The notes under the pieces were generated by a model that saw only the letters and a list, made by a program, of their open reading frames with translations, ran no database searches and had not been told where the DNA came from. Below are positions 4 through 5,475 of a stretch of 5,475 bases of DNA, piece after piece. The stretch's first letter is position 1; every line of letters starts with the position of its first letter. The stretch is from the sequence record KC237308; one strand, written 5' to 3'. This stretch comes from Enterobacteria phage ID204 Moscow/ID. The position numbers and the translations under genes are program-made.

Positions 4-33
4 TTGACACAACCATAACTACATATCTATTAT
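4..33 (+). promoter_or_regulatory. Candidate sigma70 promoter for gene A (pA): -35 TTGACA at 4..9, 18-nt spacer, -10 TATTAT at 28..33
   Basis: Seen in sequence: exact TTGACA hexamer and a 5/6 match to TATAAT with 18-nt spacing. From memory, phiX174 has a TTGACA in the equivalent H-A intergenic position. The -10 assignment is inference; CTATTA at 27..32 with a 17-nt spacer is an alternative. Confidence 0.45.
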
Positions 34-34
34 G

Positions 35-59
35 CCTCCAAATCATCGGAGGCTTTCTT
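35..59 (+). promoter_or_regulatory. Stem-loop CCTCC (35..39) / GGAGG (48..52) with an 8-nt loop, followed by a pyrimidine-rich tract CTTTCTT; it sequesters the gene A Shine-Dalgarno and may be the readthrough terminator after H
   Basis: Seen in sequence: perfect 5-bp inverted repeat whose 3' arm is the GGAGG Shine-Dalgarno 9 nt upstream of the ATG at 62. From memory, phiX174 has the same arrangement (CCTCCAAATCTTGGAGGCTTTTTT before the A start). The regulatory or terminator role is inference. Confidence 0.4.
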
Positions 60-61
60 AC

Positions 62-1723
62 ATGCAACAAGCTAGTGACTTCTACAACAAACCACATATC
101 GACGCTATAAAACCACTCGTTGAAACCGCTGGTATGTCTGTGCTCTCTCAATCTCCAAACCTCCGTATCTGGAAACAGGTAAATTCTCGCATCAAACTTC
201 TGGAAGAAATTCTCGCTCATTACACCAATGGTATACGCCGTGACGACAACGGCGACTTCTGGATGAATCCTAACTCTCAACTCGCAACTACAATTGCCTA
301 TCGTGCCCATCAAAAAGGACACAATCCAAAACTTATTCAATACCCTGATACATTCACTCTGGATGACATTATCCGTAAAAAGCCATTACCACAAAACGCC
401 CCTGACGAATTAAAACTCTCCGATGAAATCGGGGAAGACTATCGCCTTACAATCATCTCTCTAATCGAAGAAATGCAAGAAATCTACGACGTGCTCGGAC
501 AACTTGATATTAATAACACTATAGACCACAAACCTATCGGTAACGCCCACTGGAATCTACTCTATGAAAAACCTGTCTATAAACACTGGTATGAACTGGT
601 ATCAAAACGACCCCTTAAATCAATCAGAGACGACTACAACTATGCAAAGGCTAAGGGTATCAAAGATGAGTGCTCGAAAATCCTTGAGGAATCTACTATG
701 AAATCACGTAGGGGCTTTACCGTTCAAAGATTAATGAATGCTATGCGTACCGCTCACACTGAGGGCTGGTATGTTGTATTCGATACTCTTACTCTAGCCG
801 ATGACCGCTTAAAGGACTTCTATGATAACCCCAATGCTCTTCGTGACTACTTTCGTGATATTGGTCGCATGGTTCTCACTGCCGAGGGTCGTTCTGTGCA
901 TGATTCATCTGCGGACTGCTATCAGTACTTTTGTGTGCCTGAGTATGGCACCCAGCACGGCCGTCTACATTTTCACGCAGTGCACCTTATGCGCACACTT
1001 CCTCTGGGTTCTATCGACCCTAACTTTGGTAAGCTGGTGCGTACTAATCGGCAAATAAATAGCTTGCAAAACACATGGCCTTATGGTTACTCTATGCCCA
1101 TCGCGGTTAGATACTCCCAAGATGCGTTCTCACGCGCTGGCTGGCTCTGGCCTGTTGATACAAAGGGTGAACCCCTTAAAGCTACCTCGTATATGGCTGT
1201 CGGCTTCTACGTCGCTAAATACGTTAACAAAAAATCAGATATTGACATGGCCTCTAAAGGTCTAGGGAATAAAGAATGGAACAATTCACTCAAAACCAAA
1301 ATCAACCTGTTGCCCAAGAAAATCTTTCGCATCAGAATGTCCCGCAACTTCGGAATGAAGCTCCAGTCAATGAGTCACCTCTCAGCGGAAACACTCATTC
1401 AACTGACCCAAGTGGGTTACGACGTGACCCCGTTCAACAACATCTTGAAGCAGAACGCCAAGAAAGAGCTCAGATTGAGGCTGGCAAAGAAATCTGTCGC
1501 CGACGTTTTGGAGGCGCAACCTGTGACGACCAATCTGCTAAAATTCATGCGCAATTTGACCCGTCAAATCGGAGTGTCCAGCCTACAGAGTTTTATCGCT
1601 TCAATGACAACGAAATTAACAAGTATGGATATTTCTGATGAAACCAAAAACTACGTTGATACTTCAGGAATTGCTTCTACTCACTTACGAATTAAATCGA
1701 AGTGGACTGCTGGCGGAAAATGA
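62..1723 (+). CDS. A: Replication initiation protein A (HUH rolling-circle endonuclease), 553 aa
   Basis: The translation aligns along its whole length with phiX174 gpA as I recall it (for example the C-terminal block ...KSKWTAGGK). The HUH motif HFHAVH is encoded at 968..985 and the active-site tyrosines of YVAKYVNKK at 1208..1210 and 1220..1222. I chose the ATG at 62 because it follows GGAGG (48..52) at 9-nt spacing and matches the position of the phiX174 A start. The ORF track's ATG at 32 is in frame but has no Shine-Dalgarno and lies inside the predicted -10 element. Stop TGA at 1721..1723. Confidence 0.93.
500..529 (+). other. Viral (+) strand origin of rolling-circle replication, 30-nt core recognised and nicked by protein A; predicted nick between G506 and A507
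   Basis: Seen in sequence: CAACTTGATATTAATAACACTATAGACCAC, which matches the phiX174 origin 30-mer as I recall it. It lies inside gene A, encoding ...[10 protein letters not shown]..., as in phiX174. The nick position is taken from established knowledge of phiX174 gpA cleavage. Confidence 0.85.
698..1723 (+). CDS. A*: Protein A* (N-terminally truncated A, from an internal in-frame start), 341 aa
   Basis: In-frame ATG at 698 (MKSRRGF...) preceded by GAGGA at 686..690 with 7-nt spacing. Position and length (341 aa) match the phiX174 A* start as I recall it. Whether this start is used is inference by homology. Confidence 0.75.
1276..1638 (+). CDS. B: Internal scaffolding protein B, 120 aa, overprinted inside gene A in an alternate frame
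   Basis: ORF-track translation MEQFTQNQ...[15 protein letters not shown]...[16 protein letters not shown] aligns with phiX174 gpB (120 aa) as I recall it. A purine-rich AGGGA lies at 1264..1268 upstream of the ATG. Stop TGA at 1636..1638. Confidence 0.92.
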
Positions 1724-1790
1724 TGAAATTCAATCTCAACTTAAAGAATTCGAGAAGCTCTTACTTCGTCACCTTTCGCCATCACCTTAA
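1638..1790 (+). CDS. K: Protein K (small non-essential protein), 50 aa, overlapping the end of A and the start of C in a third frame
   Basis: Not in the ORF track (too short). Hand translation from the ATG at 1638 gives [50 protein letters not shown], with stop TAA at 1788..1790. It matches phiX174 gpK ([31 protein letters not shown]...) as I recall it. The ATG shares its A with the stop codon of B (TGATG). Confidence 0.8.
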
Positions 1791-2545: not shown

Positions 2546-3829
2546 ATGTCTAACGTTCAAACTTCCGCTGACCGCATTCCTAACGACCTTTCTCACCTCG
2601 TCTTCGAGGCTGGCAAAATCGGTCGTTTAAAAACTATCTCTTGGACTCCAGTTGTCGCTGGCGACTCATTTGAAACTGAAATGGTAGGCGCTATTCGCCT
2701 TTCCCCACTTCGTCGCGGCCTTGCCGTCGACTCTCGTGTGGATATCTTCTCTTTCTATATCCCGCACCGCCATATCTACGGACAACAATTTATTGACTTC
2801 ATGAAAGCTGGCGTTAATGCCGCTCCTCTTGCTCCGGTTACCTGCTCCTCTGGCTGGGATTCTGCTGCCTATCTTGGCACTATTCCATCCTCAAACCTCA
2901 AGGTTCCTAAATTCTTACATCAAGGATACCTTAATATTTACAACAACTACTTTAAGCCACCGTGGGATGCTGACCTTACTTACGCTAACCCATCTAATAT
3001 GCCTGAACAGGATTATAAATGGGGCGTTTGTGTCGCTAACTTAAAATCTATCTGGACTGCCCCCTTACCTCCTAACTCTAAAACATCAGAGACTATGACC
3101 ACTGGTGCTACGTCTATTGATATTATGGGCCTGCAAGCTGCTTATGCTAAATTGCACACCCAACAAGAACGTGACTACTTCATGACTCGTTACCGCGATA
3201 TTATGAAAGACTTCGGAGGTCACACCTCCTATGACGGCGATAACCGTCCTCTTCTGCTTATGCGCTCTGAATTCTGGGCCTCTGGCTATGACGTCGACGG
3301 TACTGACCAAACCTCTTTAGGTCAGTTCTCCGGTCGCGTCCAACAAACATTCAATCACAAGGTACCTCGCTTTTATGTACCTGAACACGGCGTTATCATG
3401 ACTCTCGCCGTTACTCGCTTCCCTCCGACTCATGAAATGGAGATGCACTATCTTGTCGGCAAGGAATCTTTAACCTATACCGACCTCGCTTGCGACCCTG
3501 CTCTTATGGCTAACCTTCCTCCGCGCGAAGTATCCCTTAAGGAATTCTTCCACTCCTCGCCGGACTCTGCTAAGTTCAAAATTGCCGAAGGCCAATGGTA
3601 TCGTACGCAGCCTGACCGCGTCGCATTCCCCTACAACGCACTTGACGGCTTCCCTTTCTACTCTGCTCTGCCGTCTACTGACTTAAAACAACGTGTCCTA
3701 GTTAACACTGATAACTACGACGAAATCTTTCAGTCTATGCAACTCGCACACTGGAATATGCAAACTAAATTTAATACTACCGTCTATAGACATATGCCTA
3801 CGACTCGTGATTCAATCATGACGTCATAA
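2546..3829 (+). CDS. F: Major capsid protein F, 427 aa
   Basis: Translation aligns along its whole length with phiX174 gpF as I recall it (MSN.QT...DLSHL...PLRRGLA.DS.VDIF.FY.PHRH.YG...QGYLNIYNNYFK.PW...TSIDIMGLQAAYA.LHT.QERDYFM.RY...LPTTRDSIMTS), and the length is identical at 427 aa. AAGGA at 2535..2539 lies 6 nt upstream. Confidence 0.97.
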   Translation: MSNVQTSADRIPNDLSHLVFEAGKIGRLKTISWTPVVAGDSFETEMVGAIRLSPLRRGLAVDSRVDIFSFYIPHRHIYGQQFIDFMKAGVNAAPLAPVTCSSGWDSAAYLGTIPSSNLKVPKFLHQGYLNIYNNYFKPPWDADLTYANPSNMPEQDYKWGVCVANLKSIWTAPLPPNSKTSETMTTGATSIDIMGLQAAYAKLHTQQERDYFMTRYRDIMKDFGGHTSYDGDNRPLLLMRSEFWASGYDVDGTDQTSLGQFSGRVQQTFNHKVPRFYVPEHGVIMTLAVTRFPPTHEMEMHYLVGKESLTYTDLACDPALMANLPPREVSLKEFFHSSPDSAKFKIAEGQWYRTQPDRVAFPYNALDGFPFYSALPSTDLKQRVLVNTDNYDEIFQSMQLAHWNMQTKFNTTVYRHMPTTRDSIMTS

Positions 3830-3878: not shown

Positions 3879-3927
3879 GGTTGAACAAGCGCAAGCGCGT
3901 TAGCTACTTAACTTAAGGACTACTACT

Positions 3928-4458
3928 ATGTTTCAATCTTACGTCTCTAATCACACTTCACCTCAAACTAATACAACTATCTCCGGCTCTAAAACCCCTG
4001 CCGCTCTGGCTCCTATTTTATCTACGCCAGAGCTTAGCAGGGCTACTTTAGCCGGAACTATTACTACTACTGCGTTAGCTTCATACGCTGGTCTAGCACA
4101 TATTGTGCGCATTGACCACACTAACGCTACTAATCATCAATTACTAACTATCGCAACCTCTCTCGCGTCTGCCTCGCCTATTACTGCGATGGCTGTACGC
4201 TTCGAGGTTGCTTCGGGTACGGTTCCTACCGCTATCCCTTCTACAGCTACTTACTATCCAATTCAAAATATCATCTCCGGTACCTTCTTATCTGTCCGAG
4301 ATGCCGTTACTATCGAGACTATTCCAACCACTTCGTCAAATGACGTCTATGCTGGTGTCTTTATCTTCTCTAATGCATGGGTTGCTGGCCCTGTCTCTGG
4401 CGTTATCTCTGTCAATCAGGTAAACCGTGAGGTTTCTGTACTCCAACCTCTTAAATAA
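3928..4458 (+). CDS. G: Major spike protein G, 176 aa
   Basis: Translation MFQSY.S...VRFE..S..VPT..P....YYP......G.F..V.D.VTI...P.......VY.G.......WV.......SVNQV..E...LQPLK aligns with phiX174 gpG (175 aa) at the conserved positions I recall. AAGGA at 3915..3919 lies 8 nt upstream. Stop TAA at 4456..4458. Confidence 0.93.
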   Translation: MFQSYVSNHTSPQTNTTISGSKTPAALAPILSTPELSRATLAGTITTTALASYAGLAHIVRIDHTNATNHQLLTIATSLASASPITAMAVRFEVASGTVPTAIPSTATYYPIQNIISGTFLSVRDAVTIETIPTTSSNDVYAGVFIFSNAWVAGPVSGVISVNQVNREVSVLQPLK

Positions 4459-4467
4459 GGAACTACT

Positions 4468-5475
4468 ATGTTTGGTGCAATCGCTGGCGGTATCGCCTCT
4501 TCTCTTGCTGGCGGACTCATCAACAAAGCCTTTGGAGGCGGTCAATCTGCCTCCTCTACTGGCGTTCAAGGTGATGTTCTCGCTTCTGACAATAATGTAA
4601 TCGGTGCTAATGATGCTGGTATCAAATCCGCTATTCAAGGCTCTAATCCACCTAATGGCCAACAAGCTGCTCCCAATGCTATTTCGGGCGTTCTCGCTGA
4701 CACTGGCAAAGACGCCCTATCTTCAATCACTGGCGCTGGCGTTAATAAACTTATGGAAAAAATCGGACTATCTAAAACTGCTTCTGATAAAGGCAAGGAC
4801 ACAAAGGATTATCTTGCTTCTGCATTCCCCGAGCTCAACCCGTGGGAACGTGCTGGCGCTGGTGCTTCGTCTGCTGGCATGGTTGACGCTGGCTTCCAAA
4901 ACCAAAAAGAACTAACTCGCATGCAGCTTGACAATCAAAAAGAAATCGCTAAGATGCAAAACGACACACAAAAGGATATCGCTGGTATCCAATCTGTCAC
5001 ATCCCGGCAAAATACTAAGGACTCTGTCTATGCTCAAAACGAGATGCTCCAATATAACCAAAAAGAATCTATGTCACGCGTTGGCTCTATTCTCGAAAAC
5101 ACAAGCCTCACCAAACAACAACAAACTTCTGAAATTATGCGGCAAATGCTTACTCAAGCTCAAACCGCAGGTCAACATTTTACAAATGACCAAATCAAAG
5201 AGCTTACACGAAAAGTTGGCGCTGATATTGATTCTGTCCGCGCTAACACTGACCGTACCCATGTAGAAACTCAACGCTCAAAACAGGAGGTTCAAAACTC
5301 CCGTTACGCTTCTTCACAAGTCGGTAAAACCGCTAAGGACGTCTCTAATGCAGTTACTGATACAGCTAGCTCTATTGTTGATTATTTTCGTGGTATTGAT
5401 AACAAAGTGGCAGAAACTTATAACAACTATTTCAAAGATGGTAAATCCGACGGAATCGGGTCGAACATCAAATAA
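4468..5475 (+). CDS. H: Minor spike / DNA pilot protein H, 335 aa
   Basis: Translation matches phiX174 gpH as I recall it over long blocks ([15 protein letters not shown]...GGGQ...[23 protein letters not shown]...[73 protein letters not shown]...[39 protein letters not shown]...DGK.DGIGSN). AAGGA at 4457..4461 lies 6 nt upstream. Stop TAA at 5473..5475, which is the last codon of the window. Confidence 0.95.

What the first reader, a model, noticed from the sequence alone, without database searches (positions are those of the whole stretch)
2817..3044. Hydrophobic alternate-frame ORF inside F (75 aa, ATG start); similar ORFs inside G and H; probably compositional artefacts
ORF 2817..3044 (MPLLLLRLPAPLAGILLPILALFHPQ...) starts at a real ATG and is leucine/proline-rich, superficially like a membrane peptide. 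However, it has no Shine-Dalgarno, and T-rich third positions in the F frame are expected to generate Leu/Phe-rich shifted frames. The G-internal ORF 4208..4423 and the H-internal ORFs 4604..4915 and 4928..5266 start at TTG or GTG. This genome family is the classic case of overprinting, so the ORFs are worth one check before dismissal.
Basis: inference. Interest (0 to 1): 0.2.

Follow-up and report, generated by a model that had tools for sequence, protein, structure and literature searches.

The report
Chance out-of-frame ORFs in phage genes
The 75-codon hydrophobic reading frame inside capsid gene F, and similar ones inside G and H, are by-products of codon composition rather than genes, but one H-internal frame overlaps a short stretch of H that G4-like phages keep almost letter-for-letter identical for an unknown reason.

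Summary
The window is a complete G4-like Bullavirinae genome, 96% identical to phage ID2 outside gene G. All four ORFs exist as described, all in frame +1 of F, G or H.

The F ORF (2817-3044) is ordinary:
- Synonymous-codon shuffling of F gives a +1 ORF this long 44% of the time. The same test flags real genes B (P=0.0004) and E (P=0.0016).
- The frame is intact only in the window and ID2. Every other relative examined has stops, including FL68/FL76 at 93% identity.
- F shows no loss of synonymous variation over the span (O/E 1.04).
- There is no Shine-Dalgarno, and the hydrophobicity equals that of shuffled +1 frames.

The G ORF and H ORF1 also show no constraint. H ORF2 (TTG 4928) has stops in its 5' part in 8 relatives.

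One unexpected result: H 5080-5142, inside ORF2, is nearly invariant in G4-like phages (synonymous O/E 0.08). It holds the second-longest invariant run in the genome after the replication origin. The signal is absent in phiX- and alpha3-like clades. It is most likely a cis-acting element. A shorter +1 ORF (ATG 5030 to TAG 5266, with an AAGGA Shine-Dalgarno) is not excluded.

The parts
2817..3044 (+). The flagged 75-codon ATG ORF in frame +1 of capsid gene F. Judged a compositional by-product, not a gene.
   Evidence: ORF present. Expected by chance (longest +1 ORF P=0.44). Intact only in the window and ID2; at least one stop and/or loss of ATG in all other relatives. Synonymous O/E in F over the span is 1.04. 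6 of the 11 possible stop-creating synonymous changes are seen in relatives, or 4 of 12 in the context-controlled count. SD duplex only -3.5 kcal/mol. No Pfam or PHROG match.
4208..4423 (+). 71-codon TTG ORF in frame +1 of spike gene G. Judged a by-product.
   Evidence: The frame is open in most relatives, but TTG is replaced by TCG/TCA/GCA and others in all but one relative (IMG5580 keeps TTG but has an internal stop). Longest-ORF null P=0.18; probability that the span is open 0.20. Synonymous O/E 1.00. SD duplex -1.8. The window's G has no close relative (at most 66% nt), so this comparison is weak.
4604..4915 (+). 103-codon GTG ORF in frame +1 of H (H ORF1). Judged a by-product.
   Evidence: Open in all G4-, SECphi17- and phiX-like genomes except S13; broken in alpha3-like genomes. 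GTG becomes GTA or CTG in the SECphi17-like group. Synonymous variation in H is above average (O/E 1.25), and the +1 peptide diverges strongly between the window and G4. SD duplex +0.7. Probability of being open under the null is 0.1-0.4 per genome.
4928..5266 (+). 112-codon TTG ORF in frame +1 of H (H ORF2). As defined it is not conserved.
   Evidence: Stops in its 5' part in IMG5580, SECphi17, Lilleto and L115-L121. No SD (duplex +0.2). Synonymous O/E over the whole span is 0.65, driven entirely by the internal block 5080-5142.
5080..5142 (.). Synonymous-constraint block inside H (coiled-coil region): 21 codons almost invariant in G4-like phages, with weaker constraint out to about 5200. Function unknown.
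   Evidence: Synonymous O/E is 0.08 within the G4/ID18/talmos group (19 distinct sequences), 0.59 within the SECphi17-like group and 0.23 between the groups; column-permutation P<2e-4, 0.04 and <2e-4. The 34-codon window containing it (5080-5181, O/E 0.26) is the third-lowest in the genome, after the A/K and A/B overlaps. It is the second most conserved 60-nt window and holds the second-longest invariant run (5087-5117, 31 nt) after ori(+) at 491-530. The signal is absent in alpha3-like (1.02) and phiX-like (1.37) clades. No significant RNA or DNA fold (z -0.4 to -1.3). No Rfam match in H. No long-range complement.
5017..5266 (+). Sub-ORF of H ORF2: AAGGA (5017-5021), then 8 nt, then ATG 5030, running to TAG 5264-5266 (78 codons). 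This is the only alternative frame open across the constrained block. Speculative.
   Evidence: SD duplex -5.7 kcal/mol. Open in 25 of 26 G4-/SECphi17-like genomes. Metagenomic L121 has two +1 stops inside the block while H stays intact. The frame is truncated in the phiX- and alpha3-like genomes examined. Probability of being open under the null is 0.13-0.30 per genome. The frame +2 and antisense frames all carry stops here.
5347..5406 (.). Second, weaker synonymous-constraint block near the 3' end of H, with no ORF of 40 aa or more over it.
   Evidence: O/E 0.35, 0.30 and 0.59 in the three comparisons (P<=0.011). No fold signal (z +0.7). The ORF list has no candidate there.

Best explanation
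The four ORFs are not genes. In these phages the third codon positions of F, G and H are about 70% T or C. In the +1 frame those positions become second codon positions. The shifted frame therefore reads mostly Leu/Phe/Ile/Val (xTx) and Ser/Pro/Thr/Ala (xCx) codons. It rarely forms TAA/TAG/TGA, because each of these needs T at host position 2, followed by A or G at position 3 and then a purine. Long, hydrophobic-looking +1 ORFs are thus the default outcome.

The F ORF 2817-3044 is one such chance ORF. It happens to begin at an ATG (host codons AAT GCC) and is intact only in the window's own lineage (window plus ID2).

Separately, by inference: the one real signal inside the flagged spans is the invariant block H 5080-5142 in G4-like phages. 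It is most likely a cis-acting DNA or RNA element embedded in H, not the product of H ORF2.
For: Shown:
(1) Null model. Synonymous shuffles reproduce the ORF lengths (F P=0.44, G 0.18, H 0.74), while the real overlapping genes B and E are outliers (P=0.0004 and 0.0016).
(2) The F frame is interrupted in FL68/FL76 (93% nt identity, same species; 1 stop) and in the G4 clade (2 stops). In the ID18 clade ATG becomes ACG and there are 2-3 stops. Alpha3-like genomes have 2-4 stops and phiX-like genomes 1. Nine further genomes all have stops.
(3) Synonymous variation over the spans: F 1.04, G 1.00, H ORF1 1.25. The same statistic ranks the A/K overlap (0.11), the A/B overlap (0.21) and the start of E (0.49) among the lowest windows genome-wide.
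(4) In the F span, changes that create +1 stops are accepted at least as often as control changes (4/12 versus 2/10).
(5) No SD for any of the four ORFs.
(6) Peptide composition equals that of shuffled +1 frames.
(7) No family matches.

Literature: in phiX174, 71 of 82 conserved cryptic ORFs were disrupted at once and the phage stayed viable. The fitness defect mapped to expression of H itself (PMC6883844).

For the H block as a cis element: razor-sharp, near-total invariance over 63 nt, resembling ori(+). A natural variant (L121) has two +1 stops inside it. A second constrained block (5347-5406) has no ORF at all.
Against: E, a real gene, lowers synonymous variation in D only to 0.89 overall, so the synonymous test alone cannot exclude a weakly constrained peptide. 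For F the decisive evidence is the stops in relatives. That still leaves a very young gene restricted to the window/ID2 lineage formally possible.

H ORF1 is open in every G4-, SECphi17- and phiX-like genome except S13, although the per-genome null probability is only 0.1-0.4. The context-controlled stop-avoidance test is borderline (0/13 versus 3/9, P=0.055).

For the H block, no structure, motif or known element was found that would say what the cis function is. The only open alternative frame across it is +1.
Confidence: 0.88

Rival explanations
1. The F ORF 2817-3044 is a very young, lineage-specific overprinted gene. It would encode a small membrane peptide present only in the window/ID2 lineage.
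For: It has an ATG start and is intact in both the window and ID2 (96% identity). The probability that this particular span is open under shuffling is 0.08. Its N-terminus is hydrophobic.
Against: The 0.08 is post hoc; the longest-ORF test gives P=0.44. The window and ID2 peptides already differ at 9 of 75 residues, clustered in the hydrophobic N-terminus (LLLLRLPAP versus LLSHLLLLP). FL68/FL76, in the same species, carry a stop. There is no SD and no synonymous constraint. Five prolines in the first 26 residues argue against a transmembrane helix.
Confidence: 0.02
2. The invariant block in H reflects a 12th gene specific to G4-like phages. This would be a 78-codon +1 ORF (ATG 5030 to TAG 5266) overprinted on the coiled-coil part of H, whose central, basic Leu/Lys-rich segment (...[14 protein letters not shown]...) is under strong purifying selection.
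For: +1 is the only alternative frame without stops across the block. AAGGA lies 8 nt upstream of ATG 5030, with duplex energy -5.7 kcal/mol, like the real genes. The ORF is open in 25 of 26 G4-/SECphi17-like genomes against a null of 0.13-0.30 per genome. Both the open frame and the synonymous constraint are present in G4-like and absent in phiX-/alpha3-like clades. The flanking parts of the ORF have mildly reduced variation (O/E 0.63-0.81). In the 3' part of the block (5143-5166) the tolerated H-synonymous changes are K<->R in +1, while the 4-fold sites whose changes would be radical there are invariant.
Against: The strong constraint covers only 21 codons and is near-absolute (O/E 0.08). 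That is tighter than in the known overlaps at comparable window size (A/K 0.11, A/B 0.21, E/D 0.49) and more like ori(+). L121 keeps H intact but has two +1 stops inside the block. IMG5580 weakens the SD to AAAGA. The BLOSUM and stop-avoidance tests do not discriminate: a negative control (A upstream of B, frame +1) is also 'significant', and the signal vanishes when stratified by codon change. The amphipathic K/L pattern is the expected +1 shadow of Gln/Glu/Lys and Leu/Ile/Met codons in a coiled coil (inference). The phiX174 counterpart is truncated, and phiX174 tolerates mass disruption of cryptic ORFs (PMC6883844).
Confidence: 0.1
3. The H block is conserved because of recombination or homogenisation among co-circulating G4-like phages, or because of a local mutational cold spot, not because of selection on the nucleotides.
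For: G4-like genomes are mosaic. The window itself carries a replaced G cassette next to H, and pairwise synonymous divergence along H is patchy.
Against: The same 63 nt are conserved in every lineage, including the SECphi17/Lilleto-like group at 75-78% overall H identity. This would need many independent transfers of one short segment. The few differences follow the phylogeny (for example position 5086: C in the window/ID2/FL lineage, G in all other G4-like genomes). The G-cassette breakpoints (about 3905 and about 4440) are not at the block. The region is unstructured and has C at several third positions, which should be mutable in ssDNA (inference).
Confidence: 0.07

Closest known systems
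Conserved 'cryptic ORFs' of phiX174 (Jaschke et al. 2019, PNAS; PMC6883844)
   Same: These are unannotated alternative-frame ORFs with ATG/GTG/TTG starts nested in known Bullavirinae genes, several of them in H. They are shared by some relatives and have no detected product. Disrupting 71 of them at once left phiX174 viable.
   Different: That set required an identifiable SD; none of the four ORFs here has one. The experiment was done in phiX174, not in a G4-like phage, so it does not test G4-specific features such as the H block.
Overprinted genes of Bullavirinae: B and K in A, K in C, E in D, A* in A
   Same: Same genome family and the same sense-strand nesting. E and K are in frame +1 of their hosts, as the candidates are.
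   Different: The real genes are open in all three genera, have SDs, exceed the shuffling null and depress host synonymous variation. The F, G and H ORF1 candidates meet none of these. H ORF2 meets only a local version of the last.
Embedded cis-acting elements in Bullavirinae coding sequence, e.g. the viral-strand origin inside gene A (window 491-530)
   Same: The H block 5080-5142 shares with it near-total nucleotide invariance over tens of bases inside an ORF, with sharp edges.
   Different: ori(+) is conserved across genera and has a known protein partner (gene A protein; established knowledge). The H block is specific to G4-like phages, is CA-rich and G-poor, is unstructured, and has no known function.

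Membership tests
Functional overprinted gene of Bullavirinae (as B, K, E) | Reading frame stays open in related genomes | tested here: not met
   F ORF: intact only in the window and ID2; at least one stop in every other relative examined, including FL68/FL76 at 93% nt. H ORF2 from TTG 4928: stops in 8 relatives. The G ORF and H ORF1 frames stay open, but that is expected from composition.
Functional overprinted gene of Bullavirinae (as B, K, E) | ORF longer than codon composition of the host gene predicts | tested here: not met
   Synonymous-codon permutation: F P=0.44, G P=0.18, H P=0.74. Controls: B P=0.0004, E P=0.0016.
Functional overprinted gene of Bullavirinae (as B, K, E) | Reduced synonymous variation of the host gene across the overlap | tested here: not met
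   F ORF 1.04, G ORF 1.00, H ORF1 1.25. H ORF2: met only locally (5080-5142, O/E 0.08-0.59). Controls: A/K 0.17, A/B 0.71, E/D 0.89 over the whole overlaps, and 0.11, 0.21 and 0.49 in their best 34-codon windows.
Functional overprinted gene of Bullavirinae (as B, K, E) | Conserved start codon preceded by a Shine-Dalgarno sequence | tested here: not met
   SD:anti-SD duplex: F ORF -3.5, G ORF -1.8, H ORF1 +0.7, H ORF2 +0.2 kcal/mol. The 11 known genes range from -3.1 to -9.5. Starts are lost in relatives: ATG to ACG/CCG in F, TTG to TCG/TCA in G, GTG to GTA/CTG in H ORF1. The internal ATG 5030 does have AAGGA (-5.7).
Functional overprinted gene of Bullavirinae (as B, K, E) | Detected protein product or mutant phenotype | not testable with these tools
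   No expression data exist for this phage. In phiX174, cell-free expression with mass spectrometry found only one cryptic peptide (ORF 75, 23 aa), and a genome with 71 cryptic ORFs disrupted was viable (PMC6883844).
E-like single-gene lysis / membrane peptide | N-terminal transmembrane helix conserved among relatives | tested here: not met
   The F ORF N-terminus has 5 prolines in 26 residues. Its hydrophobicity equals that of the shuffled +1 frame. The segment already differs between the window and ID2 and is interrupted or start-less in other clades. No transmembrane predictor was run.
Embedded cis-acting element / synonymous constraint element (H 5080-5142) | Nucleotide invariance beyond what the encoded protein requires, replicated in independent lineages | tested here: met
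   O/E 0.08, 0.59 and 0.23 in two groups and between them. 31-nt invariant run, second only to ori(+).
Embedded cis-acting element / synonymous constraint element (H 5080-5142) | Identifiable structure, motif or binding partner | tested here: inconclusive
   No significant fold, no Rfam family in H, no conserved sigma-70 match in the block, no long-range complement. Its CA-rich, G-poor character, including AAC AAC AAC AAA, suggests Rho or Hfq binding, but that is inference only and was not tested.

The most novel reading that the evidence does not exclude
G4-like phages (Gequatrovirus and the SECphi17/Lilleto-like relatives), but not phiX174- or alpha3-like phages, encode an unannotated 12th protein. 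It would come from a +1 ORF nested in the coiled-coil region of H (SD AAGGA 5017-5021, ATG 5030, TAG 5266; 78 aa, basic and Leu/Lys-rich with a hydrophobic tail). Selection on its central segment would then cause the near-invariance of H 5080-5142.
Probability: 0.1. Interest if true: 0.7.

Novelty: not a real feature. Interest (0 to 1): 0.2.

Why it matters
Microviruses are the textbook case of overlapping genes, so every long nested ORF invites the question of a missed gene. This check shows that the flagged F ORF, and the G and first H ORFs, are what codon composition produces by default. That agrees with the experimental conclusion for phiX174 that its ORF annotation is complete.

The useful by-product is a calibrated scan. 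It recovers B, K, E, the region upstream of B, and the replication origin. It also exposes two unexplained constraint elements in gene H of G4-like phages. If either is regulatory, or one is coding, it would add a clade-specific function to a genome family thought to be fully annotated. It would also matter for synonymous recoding of H in synthetic or attenuated phages.

Tried and rejected
- **BLOSUM62 test.** I asked whether accepted host-synonymous changes are conservative in the +1 frame. It looked significant for H ORF1 and ORF2 (P about 0.0006). It was equally 'significant' for a negative control (A upstream of B, frame +1; P=0.0002). It lost all signal, including for E and B, when stratified by codon change. 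I rejected it as confounded by A<->G changes at Gln/Lys/Glu codons and by avoidance of NTA/NTG codons.
- **Context-controlled stop-avoidance test**. Low power: even E gives P=0.28. It is only useful for showing that stop-creating changes are freely accepted in the F span.
- **RNA and DNA folding** of the H block, its wider context and the second block. No z-score was beyond -1.3.
- **Rfam at E<=1**. The only hit was a spurious snoRNA match in the A/B/K region.
- **Promoter/terminator consensus scan**. The number of hits was as expected by chance and none fell in the block. A TTGACA-16-TAAGAT site at 4928-4955 is noted but not established.
- **Repeat and complement search**. Nothing pairs with the block.
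- **Pfam and PHROGs** for the four peptides. Nothing below threshold.
- **Genome-contig scan with H**. It returned only phiX174 spike-in contamination and no G4-like diversity.
- **Rokyta et al. 2006** could not be read because it is not held.
- **Literature searches** for a known element in G4 gene H found nothing.

Full report
**What the window is.** The 5475-nt window is a complete circular-type genome of a G4-like microvirus (Bullavirinae, Gequatrovirus). It is 96% identical to Escherichia phage ID2, and 93% identical in gene F to FL68/FL76, which are classified in the same species, Gequatrovirus talmos. By homology the gene map is:
- A 62-1723, A* 698-1723, B 1276-1638, K 1638-1790, C 1720-1974
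- D 1971-2426, E 2146-2421, J 2426-2506
- F 2546-3829, G 3928-4458, H 4468-5475

**The observation.** All are in frame +1 of their host gene. The remarks about a missing Shine-Dalgarno and T-rich third positions are also correct.

**Is the F ORF more than chance?** No. I permuted synonymous codons within each host gene, which keeps the protein and the codon usage.
- The longest +1 ORF in F is 79 codons, against a null mean of 77 (P=0.44).
- G: 91 versus 73 (P=0.18). H: 116 versus 144 (P=0.74).
- The same test singles out the real overlapping genes B-in-A (P=0.0004) and E-in-D (P=0.0016).
- The peptide's hydrophobicity is also what the +1 frame gives by default. LFIVM is 0.45 observed versus 0.40+/-0.05 after shuffling, and GRAVY is 0.89 versus 0.73+/-0.26.

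**Is the F ORF conserved?** No. I assembled F, G and H from 31 loci covering all three genera, then added 9 further genomes. In codon alignments the homologous +1 frame of F is open only in the window and ID2.
- FL68/FL76 have one stop.
- The G4 clade has two.
- The ID18 clade has ACG in place of ATG plus 2-3 stops.
- Alpha3-like genomes have 2-4 stops and phiX-like genomes one.
- All nine additional genomes have at least one stop.
- Even between the window and ID2 the peptide differs at 9 of 75 residues, mainly in the 'membrane-like' N-terminus.

**Is F constrained over the span?** No. I used a pairwise synonymous observed/expected (O/E) statistic. It counts codons with identical amino acids, takes expectation per amino acid and per sequence pair, and uses 16-17 distinct G4-like genomes. 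It gives 1.04 for the F span, 1.00 for the G ORF and 1.25 for H ORF1.

The statistic has power. Genome-wide, the lowest 34-codon windows are the A/K overlap (0.11), the A/B overlap (0.21), the start of E in D (0.49), the region just upstream of B (0.51) and the viral-strand origin region (0.60).

In the F span, 6 of the 11 possible synonymous changes that would create a +1 stop are actually present in relatives. In a context-controlled count this is 4/12, against 2/10 for equivalent changes that create no stop. None of the four peptides matches Pfam or PHROGs. I conclude with high confidence that 2817-3044 is a compositional by-product.

**G ORF and H ORF1.**
- The G frame stays open in most relatives, but the TTG start is TCG, TCA or another non-start codon in all but one relative; IMG5580 keeps TTG but has an internal stop. 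There is no SD. The window's G has no close relative, so this comparison is weak.
- H ORF1 is open in all G4-, SECphi17- and phiX-like genomes except S13. However, H's synonymous sites vary freely there and the +1 peptide diverges strongly between the window and G4. The GTG start becomes GTA or CTG in the SECphi17-like group, and there is no SD.
- Persistent openness follows from avoidance of NTA/NTG codons. The same depletion of +1 stops is seen in gene A upstream of B, where no gene is known.

**H ORF2 and an unexpected signal.**
- From TTG 4928 the ORF is broken by stops in IMG5580 and in all seven SECphi17/Lilleto-like genomes, so that ORF is not conserved.
- Its span nevertheless had the lowest synonymous O/E of any window of that size in H (0.65).
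- The signal is local. The 21 codons at 5080-5142 are almost invariant, with weaker constraint to about 5200.
- To test this on more lineages I retrieved 9 further H genes from public assemblies via a protein search.
- With this larger set the block's O/E is 0.08 within the G4/ID18/talmos group (19 distinct sequences), 0.59 within the SECphi17-like group and 0.23 between the groups. Column-permutation P values are <2e-4, 0.04 and <2e-4.
- It is the second most conserved 60-nt window in the genome among nine lineage representatives. It contains the second-longest invariant run (31 nt, 5087-5117) after the replication origin at 491-530.
- The constraint is absent in alpha3-like (1.02) and phiX-like (1.37) clades.

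**What could the H block be?**
- It is CA-rich, G-poor and unstructured (z-scores -0.4 to -1.3).
- It has no Rfam match, no conserved promoter or terminator consensus and no complementary partner elsewhere in the genome.
- The only alternative frame without stops across it is +1.
- Within that frame there is an ATG at 5030 preceded by AAGGA at an 8-nt spacing, with duplex energy -5.7 kcal/mol like the real genes. This gives a 78-codon ORF ending at TAG 5266. It is open in 25 of 26 G4-/SECphi17-like genomes and truncated in the phiX- and alpha3-like genomes examined.
- That is suggestive, but several points favour a cis-acting element:
  - The invariance is near-absolute and sharply bounded, as at the origin. 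It is tighter than in the known overlaps at comparable window size.
  - The flanking two-thirds of the ORF are only mildly constrained (O/E 0.63-0.81).
  - One natural sequence (L121) keeps H intact while carrying two +1 stops inside the block.
  - A second constrained block in H (5347-5406, O/E 0.30-0.59) has no ORF at all.
- Tests meant to separate coding from non-coding constraint were not discriminating.
- My estimates: about 0.55-0.6 for an unknown cis element, about 0.1 for a new +1 gene, and the rest for other causes. Possible Rho or Hfq binding to the (AAC)3AAA-containing stretch is speculation and was not tested.

**Comparison with what is known.** The four ORFs belong with the 'cryptic ORFs' of phiX174. 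Jaschke et al. (PMC6883844) disrupted 71 of 82 conserved cryptic ORFs at once and obtained viable phage. The fitness defect mapped to H and was traced to H expression through a synonymous site in its third codon, not to a cryptic ORF. That work was done in phiX174 and does not address G4-specific elements. I found no literature on a conserved element inside G4 gene H.

**Verdict.** The flagged F ORF is not a real feature. The H 5080-5142 block is real, unexplained and worth a separate experimental look.

Noticed in passing
window 3905-4440: The whole G gene cassette, including its ribosome-binding site, is replaced relative to ID2. Identity is 96-100% on both sides and drops to 30-60% between about 3905 and about 4440, with sharp breakpoints. 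The encoded G is only 40% identical to ID2's G. The best match in the phage collection is 66% nt, to ID18/WA14. This is a mosaic genome with a spike-protein allele not represented in the databases searched.
   Followed up: partly
window 5347-5406: A second stretch of H has reduced synonymous variation in both the G4 group and the SECphi17-like group (O/E 0.35 and 0.30; 0.59 between groups). It lies 70-130 nt upstream of the H stop codon. No ORF covers it and it has no significant fold. It contains the palindrome AGCTAGCT and a T-rich run. It may be regulatory for the downstream gene A.
   Followed up: partly
window 4921-4960: A promoter-like site, TTGACA-16 nt-TAAGAT (10 of 12 consensus positions), sits exactly at the TTG 'start' of H ORF2. 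The synonymous positions inside both hexamers are invariant in the G4/ID18/talmos group. The site reads TTGATA in SECphi17 and in L117/L119 and is absent in phiX-like genomes. Consensus hits in the genome are no more frequent than in shuffles, so this is only a lead.
   Followed up: partly
window 1638-1790: Gene K is 50 codons here, against 56 in ID2, the FL phages and G4. A GAA to TAA change at 1788-1790, synonymous in the overlapping C frame (CTG to CTT), removes the last six residues.
   Followed up: partly
L035-L113 (genome contigs): The 79 distinct loci returned were contigs filed under unrelated bacterial and archaeal assemblies (Clostridium, Methanoculleus, Mesorhizobium and others). 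Their H genes all matched the query at the 68% identity seen for phiX174, on contigs mostly 5.3-5.5 kb long. This is most likely Illumina spike-in contamination. They were not compared directly with phiX174.
   Followed up: no
L115-L121 and L025: Public read-archive assemblies contain a group of complete genomes of about 5.5 kb related to SECphi17 and Lilleto. Their H genes are 75-78% identical in nucleotides to the window. They widen the known diversity next to Gequatrovirus and were useful as an independent lineage for constraint tests.
   Followed up: partly
window 32-61: The ORF finder extends gene A upstream to an ATG at 32. That start has no Shine-Dalgarno (duplex +1.9 kcal/mol), whereas the annotated start at 62 has the strongest in the genome (-9.5). 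A terminator-like hairpin (34-53) overlaps that SD, just downstream of a near-consensus promoter at 4-33.
   Followed up: no
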